Below are positions 8,901 through 19,212 of a stretch of DNA of 64,000 nucleotides, piece after piece (positions within the stretch are counted from its first letter, which is position 1; each line of letters starts with the position of its first letter). The DNA comes from Naegleria gruberi (Eukaryota). Made by a program: the position numbers and the translations under genes. The notes under the pieces were generated by a model. The model saw nothing but the letters and a program-made list of their open reading frames with translations, was not told the origin of the DNA and did not search any database. The stretch lies in assembly GCA_000004985.1 (NCBI GenBank), contig GG738885.1; one strand, written 5' to 3'.

Positions 8901-9482
8901 ATGACTAACAGAAAGGACCTCATCTTTAAACTTGCCAAAGGTTATTTCGGCAGAAGTAAAAATTGTTGGAGAACAACAAGAAATAGAGTGGAGCATGGTC
9001 TTGAACATGCCTACCGTGGAAGAAAGGAAAAGAAAAGAACAATGAGTAGTATTTGGATACAAAATGTTAAAGCTGCTACCGAACAACATGGAGTAAAATA
9101 TAGTCAATTTATGAATGGATTTGTTCTTAGTGGATGCCAAATTAATCGTAAAGTACTTGCCGAATTGGCCCAAACAGAACCTTTAACTATGCGTGCTTTA
9201 GTAGCCTTGTCTGTGCAAGCACGTAGAGAATTTGCTGTAGAATTCGGAAACAAGGATAACTCAGCTGGTGCTCTTTCGTATGAACTTGACTTCCCAGTGG
9301 AAGCTGAATTATCTTATGAAGGAGAAGATGCTGAAGTTACTCGTATAACGGAACATTTGTCCAAAGTTTTCTCTGACCTTGTTGCCAAGGAATATGAAGA
9401 AGATAAGATTTACCAACAAAAACTTGAACAAGAAATTAAGGATAAGAAGATTAAAGTCACCGGAGACCCAATTATTGTATAA
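8901..9482 (+). CDS. Mitochondrial-type ribosomal protein bL20 (MRPL20 homolog) with an acidic C-terminal extension
   Basis: The N-terminal ~115 aa (RKDLIFKLAKGYFGRSKNCWRTTRNRVEHGLEHAYRGRKEKKR...IWIQNVKAATEQHGVKYSQFMNGF...INRKVLAELA) align with bacterial or organellar L20 (KQAKGYYGARS...YRDRRQRKR.FR.LWI.RINAA....G..YS.F...L....I..DRK.LA..A). Confidence 0.7.
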   Translation: MTNRKDLIFKLAKGYFGRSKNCWRTTRNRVEHGLEHAYRGRKEKKRTMSSIWIQNVKAATEQHGVKYSQFMNGFVLSGCQINRKVLAELAQTEPLTMRALVALSVQARREFAVEFGNKDNSAGALSYELDFPVEAELSYEGEDAEVTRITEHLSKVFSDLVAKEYEEDKIYQQKLEQEIKDKKIKVTGDPIIV

Positions 9483-9685
9483 AAACCTAAAAAAACAAAT
9501 ATTATATGGATTAAATTATATTTTCTAAATTGTTTCATCTCCTCCTTACTGAAATTGAGAAACTTTACAAATAATTATTAATATTATTTGGAGAACATGC
9601 AACCCTTTAGATAATTTAAAAAAGTCAAAAGCATTAAAACCAACAAGTTGCAAATTTTCAATAATAGAATTTTGAGATAGACAAT

Positions 9686-9803
9686 GGCTACGGCCATATC
9701 ACGATGAATGCACCTCATCCCGTCCGATTTGAGAAGTTAAGCATCGTCGAGCCACATCAGTACTGAGGTTGGAGACAACTTGGGAACCTGTGGTGCTGTA
9801 GTC
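9686..9803 (+). rRNA. 5S ribosomal RNA gene, copy 1 (118 nt)
   Basis: GGCTACGGCCATATCACGATGAATGCACCTCATCCCGTCCGATTTGAGAAGTTAAGCATCGTCGAGCCACATCAGTACTGAGGTTGGAGACAACTTGGGAACCTGTGGTGCTGTAGTC matches eukaryotic 5S along its length (GCCTACGGCCATACC...CCCGTCCGATCTCGGAAGTTAAGC...AGTACT.GG.TGGGAGAC..CTGGGAA.ACC.GGTGCTGTAG). It is followed by a TTTTT Pol III terminator. Confidence 0.85.
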
Positions 9804-9809
9804 TTTTTC
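9804..9809 (+). terminator. T-run (TTTTTC) immediately 3' of 5S copy 1; presumed RNA polymerase III terminator
   Basis: An oligo-T tract directly abuts the 5S 3' end. The same arrangement occurs at the other two copies. Confidence 0.4.
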
Positions 9810-9838
9810 AAATTAACACTTTTAATGTTTGTTCCAGA

Positions 9839-10807
9839 TTATTCAAAATGATGTTTATTTTCTTGAATGAATTGTTCCAAAGATCTTGGTTTCTTTCCAG
9901 TAACAATCTCAAAATCTGCATGTACATTAGCAGAGGTTCCATTCAATTTGTAAAATTGGAATAATCTCACCAGTCCAAATACTAAAAACTTTGGTAATTG
10001 ACCTAATTGATTAGCCAACTCAATTTCATCAATTCTTGCCCAAGTAATTTGTCTTCCAATAACTTTGGAAATAATCTCAGCTACTTGATCATAATTTAAA
10101 GATTGAGGTCCTGTAATATTGTAAACTTGTCCTCCGTGAATATTTGGATTTTCGGTGAGAATTTGAGCAGCCATATCAGCAATATCTCTAACATCGACAT
10201 GACTAATGTGATATGGAACTCCATGGTCATTTCTTGGCTTGAAGAATTGAGATGAGTTTTTGATGGAATGAATGTCATCTCTAAGGAAGTTTTGCATGAA
10301 TAGATTAGGTCTTAAAATTACGTAGGAAACATTTGGTGCCTTATTCGAAAGTAAATTACCAATTACAACTTCAGAATCGCCATGATATCTGAATAAACTA
10401 TTCGATTCAATAGTTGTTGAAGCACCCAATCCAGATAATCTTATCACTTGTTTCAAATCATACTTTGAATATTGAAGAATCTTGTCAATTAATTGCTCTT
10501 CCACTTTTGGTTGATTTGGTGCACTCAATGTTAAAACGAAAACCCTTTCAATCTTTTCAAATGTACTCGATGGAATTAATTCGAGTTGATTCAAGTCACC
10601 TTGAACATATTCTACATCAAGATTATTTACATAATTTACAAGTTCTTGTTTTGCCTTTTCAACATTTCTCACCAAAACCTTCACTGATTGACCAAATGAT
10701 TTCTGTTCTGAAAGGGCTTTCAATAAATGCTTTCCAATAGTTCCTGTTGCTCCAGTAATAAGAATACTGCTCTTACTATTGGTTGCTGTGATTTCGCTTG
10801 ACATTTT
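9839..10807 (-). CDS. NmrA-like / atypical SDR NAD(P)-binding Rossmann-fold protein
   Basis: The track start at 10858 is TTG; ATG is at 10807 (MSSEITATNSKSSILITGATGTIGKHLLKAL). A GxxGxxG dinucleotide-binding motif starts a ~320-aa NmrA/isoflavone-reductase-like fold. Confidence 0.6.
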   Translation of the reverse strand, partial: KMSSEITATNSKSSILITGATGTIGKHLLKALSEQKSFGQSVKVLVRNVEKAKQELVNYVNNLDVEYVQGDLNQLELIPSSTFEKIERVFVLTLSAPNQPKVEEQLIDKILQYSKYDLKQVIRLSGLGASTTIESNSLFRYHGDSEVVIGNLLSNKAPNVSYVILRPNLFMQNFLRDDIHSIKNSSQFFKPRNDHGVPYHISHVDVRDIADMAAQILTENPNIHGGQVYNITGPQSLNYDQVAEIISKVIGRQITWARIDEIELANQLGQLPKFLVFGLVRLFQFYKLNGTSANVHADFEIVTGKKPRSLEQFIQENKHHFE

Positions 10808-11023
10808 GCTGTTTTTTTTTGTTTGTTTTATTTGCTGCAACTGTTTCAACTTTCCCAATTAATAGCTTTGTCGCACTTGATTTGTACGTGCTGCGCAGAT
10901 CAGCAAAAATATTCTGCTTCTGAAAAATAGTGCACTTTTAAGCAGCGAGTAAGCACAAAATTCCTATTCACGTTTCGAATAAAAAAAGGGGATATTCAGT
11001 ATGCAGTAGAATAGTAAGAAAAA

Positions 11024-11506
11024 ATGTCAACAAGAGCATTCGAAACTGTTAACGTGTATGTGAGTGGAGTTATTCCAAATGTTAGTGCATCAACTGTTTG
11101 GTCACTGATTGGTTCTTTCAATGGTTTGCCAACTTGGTATGATACTGTTGCCAGCAGTGAAATGGACAATAATCAATCGGATAATACTGTGGGAGGTATT
11201 CGAAAGCTCACCATGAAAAATGGTATTATTCAACGTGAAAGATTAATTGCTATGGATTTACGGAATTCTTCTTACACTTACTCCCTAGTTGATGGTATCC
11301 CATGGGAAGGATATAATAATGATTACTTTGCAACTATTTCAGTCAAGCCAATTACAACAAATGGAACTGATAAGGTAGATAACACATTATTGGAATGGGA
11401 GGCAGAATTTACATGTCCACATGGTGAAGGAAAGAAATGGCAACAAGTTATTGAGGGAATATTTGAGTATGGAATTAAATGTTTACAAAATATTTACAAC
11501 AAGTAA
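11024..11506 (+). CDS. SRPBCC (Bet v1/START-like, polyketide-cyclase-like) superfamily small protein
   Basis: 160 aa with no introns. It has the size and hydrophobic periodicity of a Bet v1-like ligand-binding fold (W..I..F..L..W......E..........R.L). The assignment is weak and family-level only. Confidence 0.4.
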   Translation: MSTRAFETVNVYVSGVIPNVSASTVWSLIGSFNGLPTWYDTVASSEMDNNQSDNTVGGIRKLTMKNGIIQRERLIAMDLRNSSYTYSLVDGIPWEGYNNDYFATISVKPITTNGTDKVDNTLLEWEAEFTCPHGEGKKWQQVIEGIFEYGIKCLQNIYNK

Positions 11507-11607
11507 TAAGATTGAATAAAGGTCTTTCAAATGGACTCGATTTTGATTTCTGTCTTGGCTTGAAATTTTGTTTGAATTCAATACTACATTATTAAATATA
11601 AAGATAT

Positions 11608-11687
11608 GTTTACACGGTTAACTACTAGGCCTCATCCCGTCAGACGTTGAGTCACATCTGATAACTTGGTGATGTAGTTATTTTTCC
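11608..11687 (+). pseudogene. Truncated 5S rRNA-derived element (internally deleted 5S pseudogene or SINE-like fragment) with a T-run
   Basis: CCTCATCCCGTCAGACGTTGAG..ACATCTGATAACTTGG.TGATGTAGTT followed by ATTTTTCC parallels the 5S segments CCTCATCCCGTCCGATTTGAG / CACATCAGTA / ACTTGGG / GCTGTAGTC with deletions. It lies 480 bp from 5S copy 2. Confidence 0.4.
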
Positions 11688-12156
11688 ATTTCTATTAAAT
11701 GAAAATGCAATATCAATTACTGGTTGGCTAGTTAGCACTTGTTATCTACTTGCTCGTCTAAATATCAACCTAACAAAAAAAATCTCAGTTAGATTTGATA
11801 CGTTTCACTTTGTGGATAATGTAATTATTATTATCAACAACAGTAAACATATTTCTATTTAAATATTTTATGGAAATATTCATCAATTTTAGATAAATTT
11901 ATCAAAATTATTAAATTTTTTAATTCTTTGCTCATTTCCAATAAAAATTGATTTCAATAACATTATTTTCAAATAGTTGTAATCTTTCAAATCCAATGTT
12001 GTTATTATCAAAATAAGTATTTACGATAAAATTATATTTTCAGAAATATTTTCAGATAACGAAATAAATAATTAGTATTATAATTTAAATTATTACTAAA
12101 AACATCTTTAAAATCATAAATAGTTTCAATATATTCAATCAGTCTATTGGGATTAT

Positions 12157-12172
12157 TCAAAAAAGAAGAAAA
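12157..12172 (-). terminator. Oligo-T tract (CTTTTCTTCTTTTTTG on the minus strand) 3' of 5S copy 2
   Basis: Plus-strand CAAAAAAGAAGAAAAG at 12157-12172 abuts the 5S 3' end. Confidence 0.35.
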
Positions 12173-12290
12173 GACTACAGCACCACAGGTTCCCAAGTTG
12201 TCTCCAACCTCAGTACTGATGTGGCTCGACGATGCTTAACTTCTCAAATCGGACGGGATGAGGTGCATTCATCGTGATATGGCCGTAGTC
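12173..12290 (-). rRNA. 5S ribosomal RNA gene, copy 2 (118 nt, minus strand)
   Basis: Its reverse complement is identical to copy 1 except G2A at the 5' end. It is preceded on the coding strand by AATTAAGGAGATAAATG and followed by CTTTTCTTCTTTTTT. Confidence 0.85.
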
Positions 12291-12354
12291 ATTTATCTCC
12301 TTAATTCTTAGTATACAAACAATCTCATACCACTACCTAATTAAGCAATTGGAC

Positions 12355-13605
12355 CTAATATTGTAGTTTTTCAAAAACTATCTTCATGTTTTGTGGTAAA
12401 TCTAATTCAGGTTTGTTGAACCCCTTCGAATAAATTAGTTTTTCTAATTTTGGTAATTTCAATAAAGATTCCAATCCAAACTGGTCTATTTCAGCATATT
12501 TGATGGAGAGTTCCTTAATGGACTCGAATTTAGAGAAATGTTCTGCTAATTCATTGGTAATACTAAACATTTTAAAGGTTTCCAATTGTTTAAACGTTTC
12601 AGGGTTCAACCTAGCGAGATTTTCCCCATATCCACCATCCTCAAATGAAAGCTCTTTCAATTGACTATTTTTGGAAATTGAATCCATCAAATAATCAGAA
12701 AAATCAGCATATGACAAGCTTAATCTCAATGTTTTGACATTCTCGCAAAATGGTACTCCAAATCCTTCAATTCGTTCTCCATGCAAAGTAATCTTCTCTA
12801 AATGTTTCAACTTATTTATGGCTGCAAATGATTCAACAACTTGCTCACTTGTTGGATCTTCTGTAATTTCACCTCTTATTAGATAAATAACGGAATATAT
12901 CTCTTTAAGATTCTTCCAATTTTCAAATATTTCTGGCGCTGTAAAAATTGATGTTAATGACTTGTTTTTGAAATATTCTAATTGAGGAGTGTTTTTTGAT
13001 ATTTCAATAAAATGTTCAATTAATGAGCTTGAATCAATACAATCCAATGTCAATTTCTTCAAATTTCTACACTGTGCAATTAAAGAAGCCAAGCTGGAGA
13101 GACCATAATCACTATTAGAATAATAATCACATCTAATATAAATATTTTCCAAACTTGGAAATTTTTTCAATGCCCATTGAGAAACATATTCTGGAAGATA
13201 GTCACTAGATAACTGAATTGATTTAACCAAATCTGTATCCACATTTTTGAATGTTCTTTCCAAATTTTCAATTACTTTTTCTTTAGTATTATGTTTCTGG
13301 AGGTTTGGTTTCAAAATATTTGATTTTTCACCTTCTATCAAGTCAATTCTCTTTCCATCATTGGCACAAAGTTCAATATTTATCACTTGTCTTTCAAATG
13401 ATTCTTCCACCCTCGTTTGGTCCCAACACAAATTCTTGAATAAGAAGCAAATATTTCCTGTTGGAAATCTTCCAAAATAATACTTGAAAAATGTTGAAGA
13501 TTTTCTACTGCACAACTTGGCTTCAAATTCTAAATAGGACAAAATTTCCATTATGATTTCTGATGGAAGCTGGTGATAGAGTTCACCACCATCATGTGTT
13601 GACAT
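12355..13605 (-). CDS. F-box / leucine-rich-repeat protein
   Basis: 416 aa with ATG at 13605. The N-terminal LPSEIIMEILSYLEFEAKLCSRKSSTFFKYYF is an F-box. The remainder is irregular LRRs (LKKLTLDCID.., LEKITLHGERIEG.., LKELSFEDGG.., LEKLIYSKGF..). Confidence 0.5.
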   Translation of the reverse strand: MSTHDGGELYHQLPSEIIMEILSYLEFEAKLCSRKSSTFFKYYFGRFPTGNICFLFKNLCWDQTRVEESFERQVINIELCANDGKRIDLIEGEKSNILKPNLQKHNTKEKVIENLERTFKNVDTDLVKSIQLSSDYLPEYVSQWALKKFPSLENIYIRCDYYSNSDYGLSSLASLIAQCRNLKKLTLDCIDSSSLIEHFIEISKNTPQLEYFKNKSLTSIFTAPEIFENWKNLKEIYSVIYLIRGEITEDPTSEQVVESFAAINKLKHLEKITLHGERIEGFGVPFCENVKTLRLSLSYADFSDYLMDSISKNSQLKELSFEDGGYGENLARLNPETFKQLETFKMFSITNELAEHFSKFESIKELSIKYAEIDQFGLESLLKLPKLEKLIYSKGFNKPELDLPQNMKIVFEKLQY

Positions 13606-13943
13606 TTTTTTTTAAAATTGGCTATTTTTCAAAGTTCATCTAAGCGCTATCCTGAAAGATTGAAATGTAAAATTCATTTAAATTGAGAATAGAGTGATGT
13701 TGCATTTGTAACAACTTTATTCCTGATACTGTAACCATGTAGTGTTGTTTGTTACAATTGTTATTGCAAAATTCTAATGATTGTTAACAATTAGCTAATA
13801 GTTAATAAAGATGAGATGATCATAGACACAATAGTATCAATTTCATCAAGTGGAAATGTTGATAATTAAATATTCTGATGAATAGTTTACTTTCTAAAAC
13901 GTTCGGTAATCCTTTCCATGAACTTTAAGATCAACAAAAAAAA

Positions 13944-15002
13944 ATGCAAAGATCACAACAACAGCAAACCATCAAACTCACCAAAGCAAAACAAAAGAAA
14001 ACAATTTCTTCAGAAAGATTGCCAACAGAAACATTTATATCCATTGTTAGAGATTGTGTAAAATTACAACTTGATATTAGACCTTTACAATTCAAAAAGA
14101 AAATCTCTAACGGAACCAGAGACTTTCTTTGTGATAAGGTAAAGAATTCGAAGGCAGTTTGTCGAGAAATCAATAGAGGAGATAATGTCATGATGAATAT
14201 AATTTTCACATGTCAAGATTCTCAACCAATAATTCCAAATTATATTAAGGGAGTAACGAGTTATATTGAAAAGCATAAAATTTCGTACCCAGACAAGATC
14301 ATGTCAATTGACACTTTACGAATTGATATTGAATTTCCGTACCATAATTCAATAACAGAGGTTGCTAAGAAGATTAATTTACATGAGGAAGAATCATTGA
14401 TCAATTCTCTTATAACCATTATTGATAAGGATGATCATCAAGTGTATTTCAAAATGAAAACTAATTATTGCAATGAGGATAAGGAACATTTGTATAGATA
14501 CATTGTAATTGGAAAAATGGATCAAAGTGAGCATGCTTTCATCTTTGATGTGAGCGATTTTATAAATATTTGTGGTATCAATGGTGGTATTCCAAAAAAT
14601 CTCAAAAAGATTTATGATTTGTGCATGCCAAAGGATTTAGTCCAATATTTTGAAAAGAATGGATGCAGCTCAACAAATTCAGATACAAGTGTCAGAAGAG
14701 TTGGATTTGGAATGTTCTTCAGATCAGATACCAGACCACGCAGAGAGCGTTTCGGACAATACTACCGCCCATGTTGGGAATCAGATGGTTCAGTTGCAGC
14801 CTTAGTGAACTCGTACTCAAGGAATGGAGATTATGGTATTCAAATATTGGCACAGGGCGCAAGAGAATTCCATCCAACTGAGTATTCTGGTGAGATTGAT
14901 GTAGGATATTACAAATTTAAAATGGGATGGTGTAGATTCACTTCATTCCAATCAGCCCAGCACTACACTTGCAAATTAATCCAGGAAGTTAAAAATTCAT
15001 AA
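13944..15002 (+). CDS. Hypothetical protein (352 aa); no family recognised
   Basis: Uninterrupted ORF with ATG at 13944. Its codon bias resembles neighbouring genes. The N-terminus is basic and Lys-rich (KLTKAKQKKTISSERLP). Confidence 0.45.
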   Translation: MQRSQQQQTIKLTKAKQKKTISSERLPTETFISIVRDCVKLQLDIRPLQFKKKISNGTRDFLCDKVKNSKAVCREINRGDNVMMNIIFTCQDSQPIIPNYIKGVTSYIEKHKISYPDKIMSIDTLRIDIEFPYHNSITEVAKKINLHEEESLINSLITIIDKDDHQVYFKMKTNYCNEDKEHLYRYIVIGKMDQSEHAFIFDVSDFINICGINGGIPKNLKKIYDLCMPKDLVQYFEKNGCSSTNSDTSVRRVGFGMFFRSDTRPRRERFGQYYRPCWESDGSVAALVNSYSRNGDYGIQILAQGAREFHPTEYSGEIDVGYYKFKMGWCRFTSFQSAQHYTCKLIQEVKNS

Positions 15003-15060
15003 ATATTGAATTTTATTCTGCTACGATTTCTTTTTGAACTTCGATCATAAATTGGTAAAG

Positions 15061-15140
15061 GCAAAATGTGTCCAATAAATAGAAGATTGATCAACCGTTT
15101 CAAATTCTTCAACCAAACCTTGCTGAACTAAGAATCTTTA
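15061..15140. repeat. ~80-nt dispersed duplicate of 16091-16185 (the 3' coding end of the small minus-strand gene at 16086-16510)
   Basis: GCAAAATGTGTCCAATAAATAGAAGATTGATCAACCGTTTCAAATTCTTCAACCAAACCTTGCTGAAC at 15061-15130 is about 80% identical to GCAAATGTTCAATAAATACGAGGGTGATCAACCTTTTCAAATTCTTCAAACAAAACCTGAACC at 16091-16155. The minus-strand reading gives VQQGLVEEFETVDQSSIYW versus VQVLFEEFEKVDHPRIY*. Confidence 0.4.
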
Positions 15141-15195
15141 CGTTTTGTTCCAAGTATATATTGTTATTTAAATACCAGAAATTAAGGAGATAAAT

Positions 15196-15313
15196 GACTA
15201 CGGTCATATCACGATTCATGCACCTCATCCCGTCCGATTTGAGAAGTTAAGCATCGTAGAGCCACATCAGTACTGAGGTTGGAGACAACTTGGGACCCTG
15301 TGGTGCTGTAGTC
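15196..15313 (+). rRNA. 5S ribosomal RNA gene, copy 3 (118 nt)
   Basis: GACTACGGTCATATCACGATTCATGCACCTCATCCCGTCCGATTTGAGAAGTTAAGCATCGTAGAGCCACATCAGTACTGAGGTTGGAGACAACTTGGGACCCTGTGGTGCTGTAGTC differs from copy 1 at about 6 positions. It is preceded by AATTAAGGAGATAAATG and followed by TTTTTATTTT. Confidence 0.85.
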
Positions 15314-15323
15314 TTTTTATTTT
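15314..15323 (+). terminator. T-run (TTTTTATTTT) 3' of 5S copy 3
   Basis: Directly abuts the 5S 3' end. Confidence 0.4.
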
Positions 15324-16085
15324 CAACCTTTTATCATGAGAGGAAATGATTGTTGGTTCGAATCAAGTGTTCCTTTATAGAAGTCCTTTCAAAATGAAAT
15401 ATTCTTTTGCAAACCATGTTAAGAGTTTTACAACTTTTTCAAAATTCCAAAATGTTTCTATTATTTAACAGAGCGAGAAATCATACCAGATGAATACTCA
15501 CAGGACAAAATTGAGAAGGAACAACCACTTTGATTATTGACCAAATTCTAGCTACTCATCCTCTGAGTGAAAGGAGGAGAGTTTCCAGATTCACATTTCA
15601 GTCTTCATGATCTCTGAAATGTCCTTCTAGGTAAGTATGAAGAAAGCAAAGAGTGCAAATTCAAACAAATCTTAAAAACCTTTCCAGATGTATTTATTTT
15701 TGAAAATTGAATTATTGTCATTGTTTGTTTTTTTATGATTTGAATTCTTTGAAATTGTTGAACATGAAGTAAACACCGAGTTGACATAATTATATTGAAA
15801 TTTATGTAGGATGTGAATTGAATCAGAAATTCAGACAGTTCAGAAGAGAATAACGAAAATTCAACTGTGCATAATTGAATATTTTGGTTTTATTTACAAT
15901 GGTTGCCTAGGCTTACAAAATTTTATGGAGTTCACCACATTTTGAATTGTTTGTTTCTCATTTCAACAGTATTCTGTGATTGAGATTTGGAAGTTTTACT
16001 TGTTTCACTTCCAATAGAAGTAATGTTTGAAATAGATGAAGTTTCAATTTCGATTTGATTAAGAAAATATCAAACCAAAATTTGG

Positions 16086-16510
16086 ATCAAGCAACTCAAC
16101 ATGGCAAATGTTCAATAAATACGAGGGTGATCAACCTTTTCAAATTCTTCAAACAAAACCTGAACCAACAAGATTCTGTCTTCGTTGCCTTCACTGTTCA
16201 TACAGTCAAAGACTGTAGCGGGATAGTCGCCATATTCCTGGCAGGCTTCCCGTCCAAAATTACAAATGATAAACAAACAATAATTCTGAAAATTGCATCA
16301 GAACAACAGTGTGATATCATCACAGGAGGTGTACACCATGTACTACTTCATCTGGGAGTTGAGTATAACCACATCTGCTCTCGTAAAATGTTATTCCTTT
16401 GAGAACAGGAGTCAAGGCTTCCTTATTATCACCTCTCTTCAAGATGACCATATTCAATGGTCCCCCTCATGGCCGAATCATAAGCTAGGATATCTATATC
16501 TTCTTCAGTC
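16086..16510 (-). CDS. Small hypothetical protein, probably spliced; exon boundaries unresolved
   Basis: The minus strand reads ATG(16510) MTEEDIDILAYDSAMRGTIEYGHLEER then a stop. The same strand later gives ..NYCLFIICNFGREACQEYGDYPATVFDCMNSEGNEDRILLVQVLFEEFEKVDHPRIY*, ending at 16086 after a TTTTCAG acceptor. A partial paralogous copy of this 3' exon lies at 15061-15140. I could not find a phase-consistent intron. Confidence 0.25.
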
Positions 16511-16953
16511 ATTTTTTTGGTTTCTTATTATTACCTGATTTCTGCATCTTGTGTTCTTGAAGTTTCTTCACTTCTGAGGTTTAAAAGCCCAATAAATATG
16601 ATATTTAATATAATAATTAAATAAATAAGAAAATAATTTTTATTATTCAATTCATTAAGGCAATAACTGGCATATCTTTTCAGAATAGTCCTAAACATTG
16701 ACTTTTCATCATTTTCACTCGTCGTTGAGAAATGAATCAGCTGTACTCGCAACAGTTTACTCAAGATTCAAATTGAATTAAACATGAACCGAGTTTGTGT
16801 CCAGAAACAAAAATCGGTTCATTGACAGAATTTCTTTGCATAAGAACTACTTTCTAAAAATATACATCTCAAACAAGTATAAAAAACAAGGAAGTGCATG
16901 GTGTTTTGAATTCAAAAAAACAACAAAACAAGAAAAACATAACAACAAACATA

Positions 16954-17412
16954 ATGCAATTATTTGTCAAGACACTCACTGGAAGAACCATCACTTTGGA
17001 GGTTGAATCTAATGATTCGATTGAAAATGTGAAAAGAAAAGTGCAAGATAAGGAAGGAATTTCACCAGATCAACAAAGACTCATCTTTGCAGGAAAACAA
17101 TTGGAAGATGGCAGAACTATTAATGATTACAACATTCAAAAAGATTCAACTCTTCATTTGGTGTTGAGATTAAGAGGAGGAATGCAACTTTTTGTAAAAA
17201 CCTTAACTGGAAAGACAATTACAATTGAAATGGAATCGATTGATACTGTTGAGAATATGAAACAAAAGATATTTGATAAGGAAGGTATTCCATCAGATCA
17301 ACAACGATTGATTTATGCCGGTAAGCAATTGGAAGATGGAAGAACTATAAGTGATTACAATCTTCAAAAGGATTCAACTGTGCATTTAGTATTGAGATTG
17401 AGAGGAGGTTAA
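16954..17412 (+). CDS. Tandem di-ubiquitin (two 76-aa ubiquitin-fold units, each ending RLRGG); both units are unusually divergent from canonical ubiquitin
   Basis: The track start at 16894 is upstream of the true ATG at 16954. The product is [76 protein letters not shown] + [76 protein letters not shown], then a stop. Unit 1 and unit 2 differ from canonical ubiquitin at 11 and 15 positions respectively, including K11R in unit 1. Confidence 0.85.
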
Positions 17413-18992: not shown

Positions 18993-19212
18993 TAAACCTT
19001 TCAATTATTATTTGGAAGATGTGACAATAAAGAATTATTTAATGTTTGGTTATATATCTATTGTTTTATCTCCTTAATGAAATTAATTGTTAATTACAAA
19101 TAATTATTGGTTAGTATTTTTCACATTTCTCCACAATCACCAAATAGTAAAAAATCATCACTATTGAATCGTCCTCCGAATTTAAAACCACACAGACAGA
19201 CAACAGAAAAAA

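What the first reader, a model, noticed from the sequence alone, without database searches (positions are those of the whole stretch)
9600..15330. Three dispersed, alternately oriented 5S rRNA genes interleaved with protein-coding genes, sharing an upstream GAGATA(A)AATG element
Identical-length (118 nt) 5S genes lie at 9686-9803 (+), 12173-12290 (-) and 15196-15313 (+). They are spaced about 2.5-3 kb apart and each sits in a short intergenic gap between Pol II genes. They are not in a tandem array and not on an rDNA unit. Copies 2 and 3 share 20 nt immediately upstream (A[GA]A[AT]TTAAGGAGATAAATG). Copy 1 has the related GAGATAGACAATG. All three are followed by oligo-T. The shared upstream box suggests a gene-external promoter element for Pol III in addition to the internal control region. 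Copy 1 and copy 2 are identical in the mature region, while copy 3 differs at about 6 positions.
Basis: seen in the sequence. Interest (0 to 1): 0.5.

Follow-up and report, generated by a model that had tools for sequence, protein, structure and literature searches.

The report
Dispersed 5S rRNA genes of Naegleria
These are three ordinary chromosomal 5S ribosomal RNA genes of the amoeba Naegleria gruberi, already listed in a published table of its 279 scattered 5S genes. The shared upstream "GAGATA" box mostly reflects two copies being local duplicates, although a weaker upstream promoter-like block does seem to be conserved.

Summary
Rfam finds three full-length 5S rRNA genes at 9686-9804 (+), 12172-12290 (-) and 15196-15314 (+), at 95-106 bits against a threshold of 38. 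Each lies in a short gap between protein-coding genes and each ends in an oligo-T run.

The window is Naegleria gruberi. The three genes match rows on scaffold_41 in Table S1 of PMC3369914 (2012), which lists 279 putative 5S genes on 117 scaffolds. That paper also reported an internal control region and a TATA box. Dispersal is therefore known; this is one of only four triplets in that table.

The 16-nt identical upstream stretch (21 of 25) is specific to copies 2 and 3, which form an inverted pair of 154 nt. An independent N. gruberi-type gene from a metagenome (L009) lacks GAGATA. All independent copies do share AGAATT at -18 to -20, just 3' of a TATA-like stretch, and T(-1)/G(+1) (P about 0.002). 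Similarity is upstream only, never downstream.

This fits a conventional Pol III 5S unit with a gene-external element in the region where TFIIIB binds. No transposon, tRNA fusion or larger repeat carries the genes. Orthologous loci in N. lovaniensis and Willaertia have no 5S. Low novelty.

The parts
9686..9804 (+). 5S rRNA gene, copy 1 (canonical; GGCUAC... 5' end)
   Evidence: RF00001, 105.4 bits, full length. Corresponds to scaffold_41:297689 in Table S1 of PMC3369914.
12172..12290 (-). 5S rRNA gene, copy 2 (canonical; 1 nt different from copy 1)
   Evidence: RF00001, 106.2 bits. Differences. Table S1 scaffold_41:300171.
15196..15314 (+). 5S rRNA gene, copy 3 (variant: 5 substitutions relative to copy 2, two broken base pairs; possibly a young pseudogene)
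   Evidence: RF00001, 94.9 bits with four 'v' columns. Differences. Table S1 scaffold_41:303199, lower similarity of 0.708.
9660..9685 (+). Upstream block of copy 1: AATAAT-AGAATT-TT-GAGATA-GACAAT (TATA-like at -26..-20, AGAATT at -20..-15, GAGATA at -12..-7)
   Evidence: Sequence. AGAATT shared with copy 2 and L009 within +-3 nt, P about 0.002.
12291..12322 (-). Upstream block of copy 2: TATACTA-AGAATT-AAG-GAGATA-AAT. It lies in the 64 nt between the stop codon of the 416-aa (weak F-box/LRR) gene and the 5S start.
   Evidence: Sequence. Inverted-repeat arm I1 with copy 3. Upstream similarity to L009, P = 0.006.
15164..15195 (+). Upstream block of copy 3: TTTAAATACC-AGAAATT-AAG-GAGATA-AAT
   Evidence: Sequence. 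Arm of I1. 16 nt identical and 21 of 25 with copy 2.
9805..9808 (+). Oligo-T Pol III terminator of copy 1 (T5 including the last gene base)
   Evidence: Sequence
12168..12171 (-). Oligo-T terminator of copy 2 (T4 including the last gene base, with a T6 run 7 nt further on)
   Evidence: Sequence
15315..15318 (+). Oligo-T terminator of copy 3 (T5 including the last gene base)
   Evidence: Sequence

Best explanation
Three members of the roughly 279-copy dispersed chromosomal 5S rRNA gene family of Naegleria gruberi. Each is an autonomous RNA polymerase III unit.

Shown here:
- Full-length 5S sequence and structure.
- A start at G(+1) preceded by T(-1).
- An oligo-T run directly after the gene.
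- No linkage to rDNA, tRNAs or any larger repeat.

Inferred:
- Transcription is driven by the usual internal control region. A box A-like AGTTAAGCATCGTCG and a box C-like GAGGTTGGAGACAACTTGG are present.
- It is assisted by a gene-external block in the -30..-10 region, where TFIIIB (TBP/Brf/Bdp) sits on Pol III genes. This block is a TATA-like stretch followed by AGAATT at -18..-20.
- Copies 2 and 3 arose by a local inverted duplication of a unit of about 165 nt (5S plus about 45 nt of 5' flank). That explains their 16-nt identity, including GAGATA.
- Copy 3 is drifting and may be a weakly functional variant or a pseudogene.
- The insertions at this locus are specific to the N. gruberi lineage.
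For: 5S identity.

Organism and published listing:
- The L20 protein is 100% identical to N. gruberi L20 on a 362,555-bp contig.
- The start-to-start spacing of copies 1 and 3 is 5510 nt both here and on scaffold_41 of Table S1 of PMC3369914.
- That table has 279 genes on 117 scaffolds: 207 singletons, 30 pairs and 4 triplets. The minimum gap is 462 nt. 26% have a neighbour within 6 kb, against 7.8% expected at random.
- The paper reports an ICR and a TATA box for N. gruberi 5S genes.

rDNA location: Naegleria 18S/5.8S/28S genes are on an extrachromosomal circle (abstracts of PMC11075319 and PMC10586121).

No larger repeat and no tRNA.

Upstream block:
- AGAATT is shared by copy 1, copy 2 and the independent locus L009, P about 0.002.
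- Upstream-only similarity: c2-c3 P = 0.0004, c2-L009 P = 0.006, c3-L009 P = 0.011. Downstream is not significant.
- L009's upstream region is a divergent promoter region shared with a hydrolase gene, not a 3' UTR. The block is therefore not simply a poly(A) signal.

Comparator set of nine 5S genes from an unidentified eukaryote:
- T-A-T-A anchored at -26..-23, P = 0.006.
- AGA within -21..-12 in 5 of 9, P = 0.002.
- A strongly conserved -9..-1 block, matched by none of 5000 rotations (P < 0.0002).

Lineage-specific position: the L20 loci of N. lovaniensis and Willaertia carry no 5S gene.
Against: - Only three effectively independent N. gruberi-type upstream regions could be examined; the other 276 loci were not retrievable.
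- Copy 1's upstream similarity is marginal (P 0.05-0.11).
- TATA-like strings are common in a 32% GC genome.
- Residual common ancestry of the flanks could mimic constraint.
- No expression or binding data are available.
- PMC3369914 reports that no TFIIIA was found in N. gruberi. If that is true, the ICR/TFIIIA part of the inferred mechanism would need revising.
Confidence: 0.75

Rival explanations
1. The upstream similarity has no function. It is only decaying homology left from DNA-level duplications whose unit happened to include 30-45 nt of 5' flank. Transcription relies entirely on the internal control region.
For: The long identity is confined to copies 2 and 3, which also share their gene-body lineage. 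Copy 1's similarity is marginal. GAGATA is absent from L009. The sample is very small.
Against: Similarity is strictly asymmetric: significant upstream and absent downstream beyond the T-run in every pair. L009 at an unrelated locus still shares AGAATTAA at the same distance. The comparator set also shows position-anchored upstream signals. Upstream elements are required for 5S transcription in several other eukaryotes (own knowledge: Neurospora, S. pombe, Arabidopsis, Drosophila).
Confidence: 0.3
2. The 5S copies were spread by a mobile element or by retroposition (a 5S-derived SINE-like element or a transposon cargo), and the box belongs to that element.
For: The positions are lineage-specific: they are absent from the orthologous loci in N. 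lovaniensis and Willaertia. Copy 1 versus copy 2 similarity begins at about -3 and ends at the terminator, as a transcript-sized unit would. 5S genes cluster locally more than random placement predicts.
Against: There is no larger shared unit, no terminal repeats, no A-tail and no evident target-site duplication. Retroposed transcripts would not carry the upstream block that copies 2, 3 and L009 share. The genes score as intact 5S rRNA.
Confidence: 0.1
3. GAGATA(A)AAT itself is the functional proximal promoter or initiator element of N. gruberi 5S genes.
For: It is present upstream of all three genes in the window, and copies 1 and 2 share the hexamer within +-3 nt. The proximal 16 nt are better conserved between copies 2 and 3 than the distal flank.
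Against: The hexamer is offset by 3 nt in copy 1. It is absent from L009, whose 5S differs by one base from the window copies. The single further near-match in the window (19063-19077) is not followed by any RNA gene and is within chance expectation.
Confidence: 0.12

Closest known systems
N. gruberi 5S rRNA gene set described in PMC3369914 (PLoS One 2012), Table S1
   Same: These are the same genes. Scaffold_41 entries 297689, 300171 and 303199 map to window 9686, about 12172 and 15196, with an identical 5510-nt span. The third copy has lower similarity, as seen here. The paper reports an ICR, a TATA box and separation from the rDNA.
   Different: The paper's Table 1 scores N. gruberi as 'tandem arrangement: yes', whereas its own coordinates show dispersal. 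It does not describe the AGAATT block, the inverted local duplicate, or the triplet.
Dispersed 5S genes of Schizosaccharomyces pombe (about 30) and Yarrowia lipolytica (108), per PMC2566860; also Neurospora crassa (own knowledge)
   Same: 5S genes lie outside the rDNA and are scattered singly among protein-coding genes as autonomous Pol III units. In S. pombe and Neurospora an upstream TATA element contributes to transcription (own knowledge).
   Different: There is no tRNA-5S fusion as in Yarrowia. The copy number is higher and loose local clusters occur. The candidate upstream block (AGAATT at about -20) is not a canonical TATA box at -30.
Type 1 Pol III promoter (Xenopus or yeast 5S: box A, intermediate element, box C bound by TFIIIA)
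   Same: A box A-like AGTTAAGCATCGTCG and a box C-like GGTTGGAGACAACTTGG sit at the expected internal positions, and the gene ends in an oligo-T terminator.
   Different: Box C deviates at 2 positions from the consensus quoted in PMC3369914. That paper found no TFIIIA homologue in N. gruberi, so dependence on TFIIIA is unproven.

Membership tests
5S rRNA (Rfam RF00001) | Covariance-model score above the gathering threshold over the full model | tested here: met
   106.2, 105.4 and 94.9 bits against 38, model positions 1-120.
5S rRNA (Rfam RF00001) | Five-helix consensus structure maintained | tested here: met
   Copies 1 and 2 have no non-canonical pairs. Copy 3 has two broken pairs (four 'v' columns) but still scores well above threshold.
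Autonomous Pol III 5S transcription unit (type 1) | Oligo-T terminator directly after the gene | tested here: met
   T4-T5 runs after all three genes.
Autonomous Pol III 5S transcription unit (type 1) | Internal control region (box A / IE / box C) | tested here: inconclusive
   Box A fits the consensus quoted in PMC3369914. Box C fits with 2 mismatches, by reading the sequence. These positions are also constrained by RNA structure, so the sequence alone cannot show promoter function.
Autonomous Pol III 5S transcription unit (type 1) | TFIIIA-dependent transcription | not testable with these tools
   PMC3369914 reports that no TFIIIA was found in N. gruberi. This was not re-examined here.
Dispersed (non-tandem, rDNA-unlinked) 5S organisation | No head-to-tail array; protein-coding genes lie between copies | tested here: met
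   Gene starts are about 2.5 and 3.0 kb apart in alternating orientation, with Pfam-supported genes between them.
Dispersed (non-tandem, rDNA-unlinked) 5S organisation | Not on an 18S-5.8S-28S unit | tested here: met
   There are no other rRNA hits in the 64 kb. Naegleria rDNA is on an extrachromosomal circle (PMC11075319, PMC10586121).
Dispersed (non-tandem, rDNA-unlinked) 5S organisation | Copies spread genome-wide | tested here: met
   Published coordinates give 279 genes on 117 scaffolds, of which 207 are singletons.
TATA-dependent upstream promoter of 5S genes (S. pombe / Neurospora type) | A TATA element at a fixed distance (about -25 to -30) in all copies | tested here: inconclusive
   TATA-like strings lie between -29 and -19 in all four N. 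gruberi-type genes, but not at one fixed position and in an AT-rich background. In the nine-gene comparator set T-A-T-A is anchored at -26..-23, P = 0.006.
tRNA-5S dicistronic genes (Yarrowia type) | A tRNA gene immediately 5' of the 5S gene | tested here: not met
   No tRNA in the window.
Transposon-borne or SINE-like 5S | A larger shared unit, terminal repeats, target-site duplications or an A-tail | tested here: not met
   Repeats are limited to the gene plus at most about 45 nt upstream, and none of these features appears in the flanks.

The most novel reading that the evidence does not exclude
N. gruberi 5S genes may depend mainly on a lineage-specific gene-external promoter block: a TATA-like stretch plus AGAATT at about -20, with a purine-rich proximal segment. 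Together with the reported absence of TFIIIA, this would mean 5S transcription here is TFIIIA-independent and driven from upstream. That would be a hybrid Pol III promoter type in a deep-branching eukaryote. These roughly 279 chromosomal genes would also have to match the output of thousands of extrachromosomal rDNA circles.
Probability: 0.15. Interest if true: 0.5.

Novelty: already known. Interest (0 to 1): 0.17.

Why it matters
It matters little beyond annotation. The genes and their dispersal are already in the literature, and dispersed 5S genes with upstream elements are known in fungi, plants and protists.

Two modest points of value:
- The published summary that N. gruberi 5S genes are 'tandem' is contradicted by that paper's own coordinates.
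- A testable candidate upstream element (AGAATT at about -20) exists for Pol III promoters in Heterolobosea, where Pol III promoters appear essentially unstudied: a search of the held library found only PMC3369914 on the subject.

Because Naegleria keeps its large rRNA genes on about 4000 episomes, how about 279 chromosomal 5S genes are coordinated with them is a reasonable follow-up question.

Tried and rejected
1. Retrieving more N. gruberi 5S loci.
- Exact-protein look-ups for two window proteins and for P0001 found nothing.
- The L20 look-up returned only a 3.4-kb ENA contig. It is 98.8% identical to the window and stops 180 nt before copy 1.
- The viral-contig scan gave 0 hits.
- The single metagenome scan gave 14 contigs, of which only one (L009) is N. 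gruberi-type.

2. Synteny footprinting. The N. lovaniensis and Willaertia loci for L20 and for NmrA have no 5S genes, so no orthologous upstream regions exist to compare.

3. A fourth, degenerate 5S relic at about 11607-11690. It has a 14 of 15 match to loop C, complementary ends and a T-run. However, Rfam does not detect it, its fold z-score is -1.07, and spurious gappy alignments elsewhere in the window score almost as high (42 against 45). I left it as inconclusive.

4. The third box match at 19063-19077 (-). No RNA gene follows it and it is within chance expectation.

5. Identifying the organism behind the second 5S type. The best named hits are only 38-40% identical and include insects and the heterolobosean Acrasis kona. 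The taxon is undetermined, so I used the set only as an outgroup comparator.

6. The bacterial promoter/terminator scan is irrelevant for a eukaryote and was uninformative.
Full report
OBSERVATION

Rfam's 5S model (RF00001) finds exactly three matches in the 64-kb window, all full-length:
- 9686-9804 (+), 105.4 bits
- 12172-12290 (-), 106.2 bits
- 15196-15314 (+), 94.9 bits

The gathering score is 38. There are no other rRNA genes and no tRNAs.

Copies 1 and 2 differ only at position 2. Copy 3 differs from copy 2 at positions 9, 21, 22, 63 and 101, and two of these changes break consensus base pairs. Each gene is followed by T4-T5.

The genes sit in short gaps between real protein-coding genes:
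- Copy 1 lies between mito-L20 (stop at 9482) and an NmrA-like gene (stop at 9839).
- Copy 2 starts 64 nt after the stop codon of a 416-aa gene that has only weak, sub-threshold F-box and LRR matches.
- Copy 3 starts 194 nt after the stop codon of a 352-aa gene with no Pfam match.

WHAT THE REPEATS SHOW

Similarity between copy 1 and the other two is limited to the gene, 3 nt upstream and the T-run (125-126 nt). Copies 2 and 3 form an inverted pair of 154 nt at 93%, which extends about 32 nt upstream.

Immediately upstream, copies 2 and 3 share 16 identical bases (AATTAAGGAGATAAAT) and 21 of 25. With gaps the similarity reaches about -45.

There is no downstream similarity beyond the T-run and no larger repeated unit, so there is no sign of a transposon or SINE-like carrier.

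ORGANISM AND PRIOR KNOWLEDGE

The L20 protein beside copy 1 is 100% identical to N. gruberi L20 on a 362,555-bp contig. The NmrA-like neighbour's best hits are N. gruberi (93%, representative of a 90% cluster, on another contig) and Willaertia magna (63%).

PMC3369914 (PLoS One 2012) reports 279 putative 5S genes in N. gruberi. Its Table S1 lists scaffold_41 entries at 297689, 300171 and 303199. The 5510-nt span between the first and third entries equals the window's 9686 to 15196. The third entry has a lower similarity score, as copy 3 does here. The finding's genes are therefore already catalogued.

Re-analysing those published coordinates gives the following:
- 279 genes on 117 scaffolds
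- 207 singletons, 30 pairs and 4 triplets (gaps of 6 kb or less)
- a smallest gap of 462 nt, so no tandem arrays
- 26% of genes with a neighbour within 6 kb, against 7.8% expected at random

This window holds one of the four triplets. The paper's Table 1 nevertheless scores N. gruberi as 'tandem', which its own data contradict.

The paper also reports an ICR, a TATA box and no detectable TFIIIA in N. gruberi. Naegleria's 18S/5.8S/28S genes are on an extrachromosomal circle present in thousands of copies (abstracts of PMC11075319, PMC10586121 and PMC13398248). Chromosomal 5S genes unlinked to rDNA are therefore expected.

IS THE UPSTREAM BOX GENERAL?

Only limited extra data could be obtained. 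One metagenome scan with a 26-nt 5S core returned 14 contigs.

One contig, L009, carries an N. gruberi-type 5S gene (1 nt different) at an unrelated locus, divergent from a hydrolase gene. Its upstream sequence is ...AAATTATAGAATTAACATAAGTAGAT|G. There is no GAGATA, but AGAATTAA sits at the same distance as in copy 2.

AGAATT lies at -20 (copy 1), -18 (copy 2) and -19 (L009); copy 3 has AGAAATT at -19. A 6-mer shared within +-3 nt by three random AT-matched 60-mers occurs with P about 0.002.

Each AGAATT follows a TATA-like stretch directly: AATAAT, TATACTA, TTTAAATACC and AATTAT. All four genes have T at -1 and G at +1.

Global alignment of the 40 nt upstream gives these P values:
- copies 2 and 3: 0.0004
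- copy 2 and L009: 0.006
- copy 3 and L009: 0.011
- copy 1 and the others: 0.05-0.11

The downstream flanks are not similar.

Nine further contigs carry a second 5S type from an unidentified eukaryote; its best named protein hits are only 38-40% identical. These genes are also solitary. Anchored on +1 they show the following:
- T-A-T-A at -26..-23, P = 0.006
- AGA within -21..-12 in 5 of 9, P = 0.002
- a strongly conserved T-rich -9..-1 block, matched by none of 5000 rotations (P < 0.0002)
- no GAGATA

INTERPRETATION

What generalises is a looser block in the -30..-13 region, where TFIIIB binds on Pol III genes, plus a pyrimidine/purine start. The upstream-only asymmetry argues for constraint rather than neutral decay.

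With only three independent N. gruberi-type sequences, I put this at about 50-60% likely. That these are ordinary, autonomous 5S Pol III units is near certain.

EVOLUTION

In N. lovaniensis and Willaertia magna the L20 gene is followed by p450 and SAM-domain genes, and there is no 5S gene within 10 kb. The Willaertia NmrA locus also lacks 5S. The insertions are therefore lineage-specific, consistent with birth-and-death turnover of dispersed copies. Copy 3 looks like a copy on its way out.

COMPARISON WITH KNOWN SYSTEMS

This organisation works like the dispersed 5S genes of S. pombe (about 30) and Y. lipolytica (108) (PMC2566860) and of Neurospora (own knowledge).

It lacks Yarrowia's tRNA fusions. 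Membership in RF00001 and in the 'dispersed, rDNA-unlinked' organisation is met on every tested feature. A TATA-dependent promoter is inconclusive, and transposon carriage is not met.

VERDICT

This is a correct observation of already-catalogued genes. The promoter-box interpretation is only partly right. Novelty and interest are low. There is one small testable lead (AGAATT at about -20, in light of the reported lack of TFIIIA) and one literature inconsistency worth noting.

Noticed in passing
window 15474-15638 (-): A full-length but sub-threshold U1 snRNA candidate (38.5 bits against a gathering score of 69.5; E = 1.7e-8 locally). It has the canonical AUACUUACCU 5' end, a GAUCAUGAAG loop I and an AAUUUUGU Sm site. 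It lies 160 nt downstream of 5S copy 3 and converges on it. It is probably the genuine, divergent Naegleria U1. Its upstream region shares nothing obvious with the 5S upstream block.
   Followed up: partly
window 11607-11690 (+): A short 5S-like stretch between copies 1 and 2: AACTAC...CCTCATCCCGTCAGA...GATGTAGTTATTTTT. It has a 14 of 15 match to loop C, complementary ends and a T-run, so it may be an internally deleted 5S relic. Rfam does not detect it, its fold is not significant, and its alignment score is not clearly above window background.
   Followed up: yes
window 19063-19077 (-): A third near-copy of the box (TTAAGGAGATAAAAC, 13 of 15) with no RNA gene after it. It is within chance expectation (0.48 expected).
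   Followed up: yes
window 15069-15137 and 16109-16177 (+): A 69-nt direct repeat at 77% identity (D2). One copy lies 59-127 nt upstream of 5S copy 3 and the other is not next to any 5S gene. On the minus strand it reads as coding-like sequence, so it may be a fragment of a duplicated gene.
   Followed up: no
PMC3369914, Table 1 versus Table S1: The paper scores N. gruberi 5S genes as tandemly arranged. Its own coordinates show 207 singletons, a minimum spacing of 462 nt and 117 scaffolds. The Table S1 interval for copy 2 is also shifted by 4-6 nt relative to the Rfam boundaries.
   Followed up: yes
window 8901-9482 compared with L002 and L003: Synteny breaks directly after the mito-L20 gene. 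N. lovaniensis and Willaertia both have p450 and SAM-domain genes there, whereas N. gruberi has the segment of 5S genes, NmrA, SRPBCC and the 416-aa gene.
   Followed up: partly
P0001: The 90%-identity cluster representative of the NmrA-like neighbour is 93% identical, is named N. gruberi, and lies on a different contig of 290,827 bp. This suggests a paralogous or divergent-haplotype copy of this region. Whether that copy also carries 5S genes could not be checked.
   Followed up: no
L005-L017 (VFQM/VFQO metagenome contigs): An unidentified eukaryote has solitary 5S genes (GGGTACGGTCATCTTG... type) among protein-coding genes. They have a strikingly conserved T-rich -9..-1 block (T at -6 in 9 of 9, a pyrimidine at -1 in 9 of 9) and an anchored TATA at -26..-23.
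   Followed up: partly
window 16894-17412 (+): The ORF encodes two divergent ubiquitin-like repeats ([10 protein letters not shown]...LRLRGG twice), a di-ubiquitin-like gene downstream of the 5S/U1 cluster.
   Followed up: no
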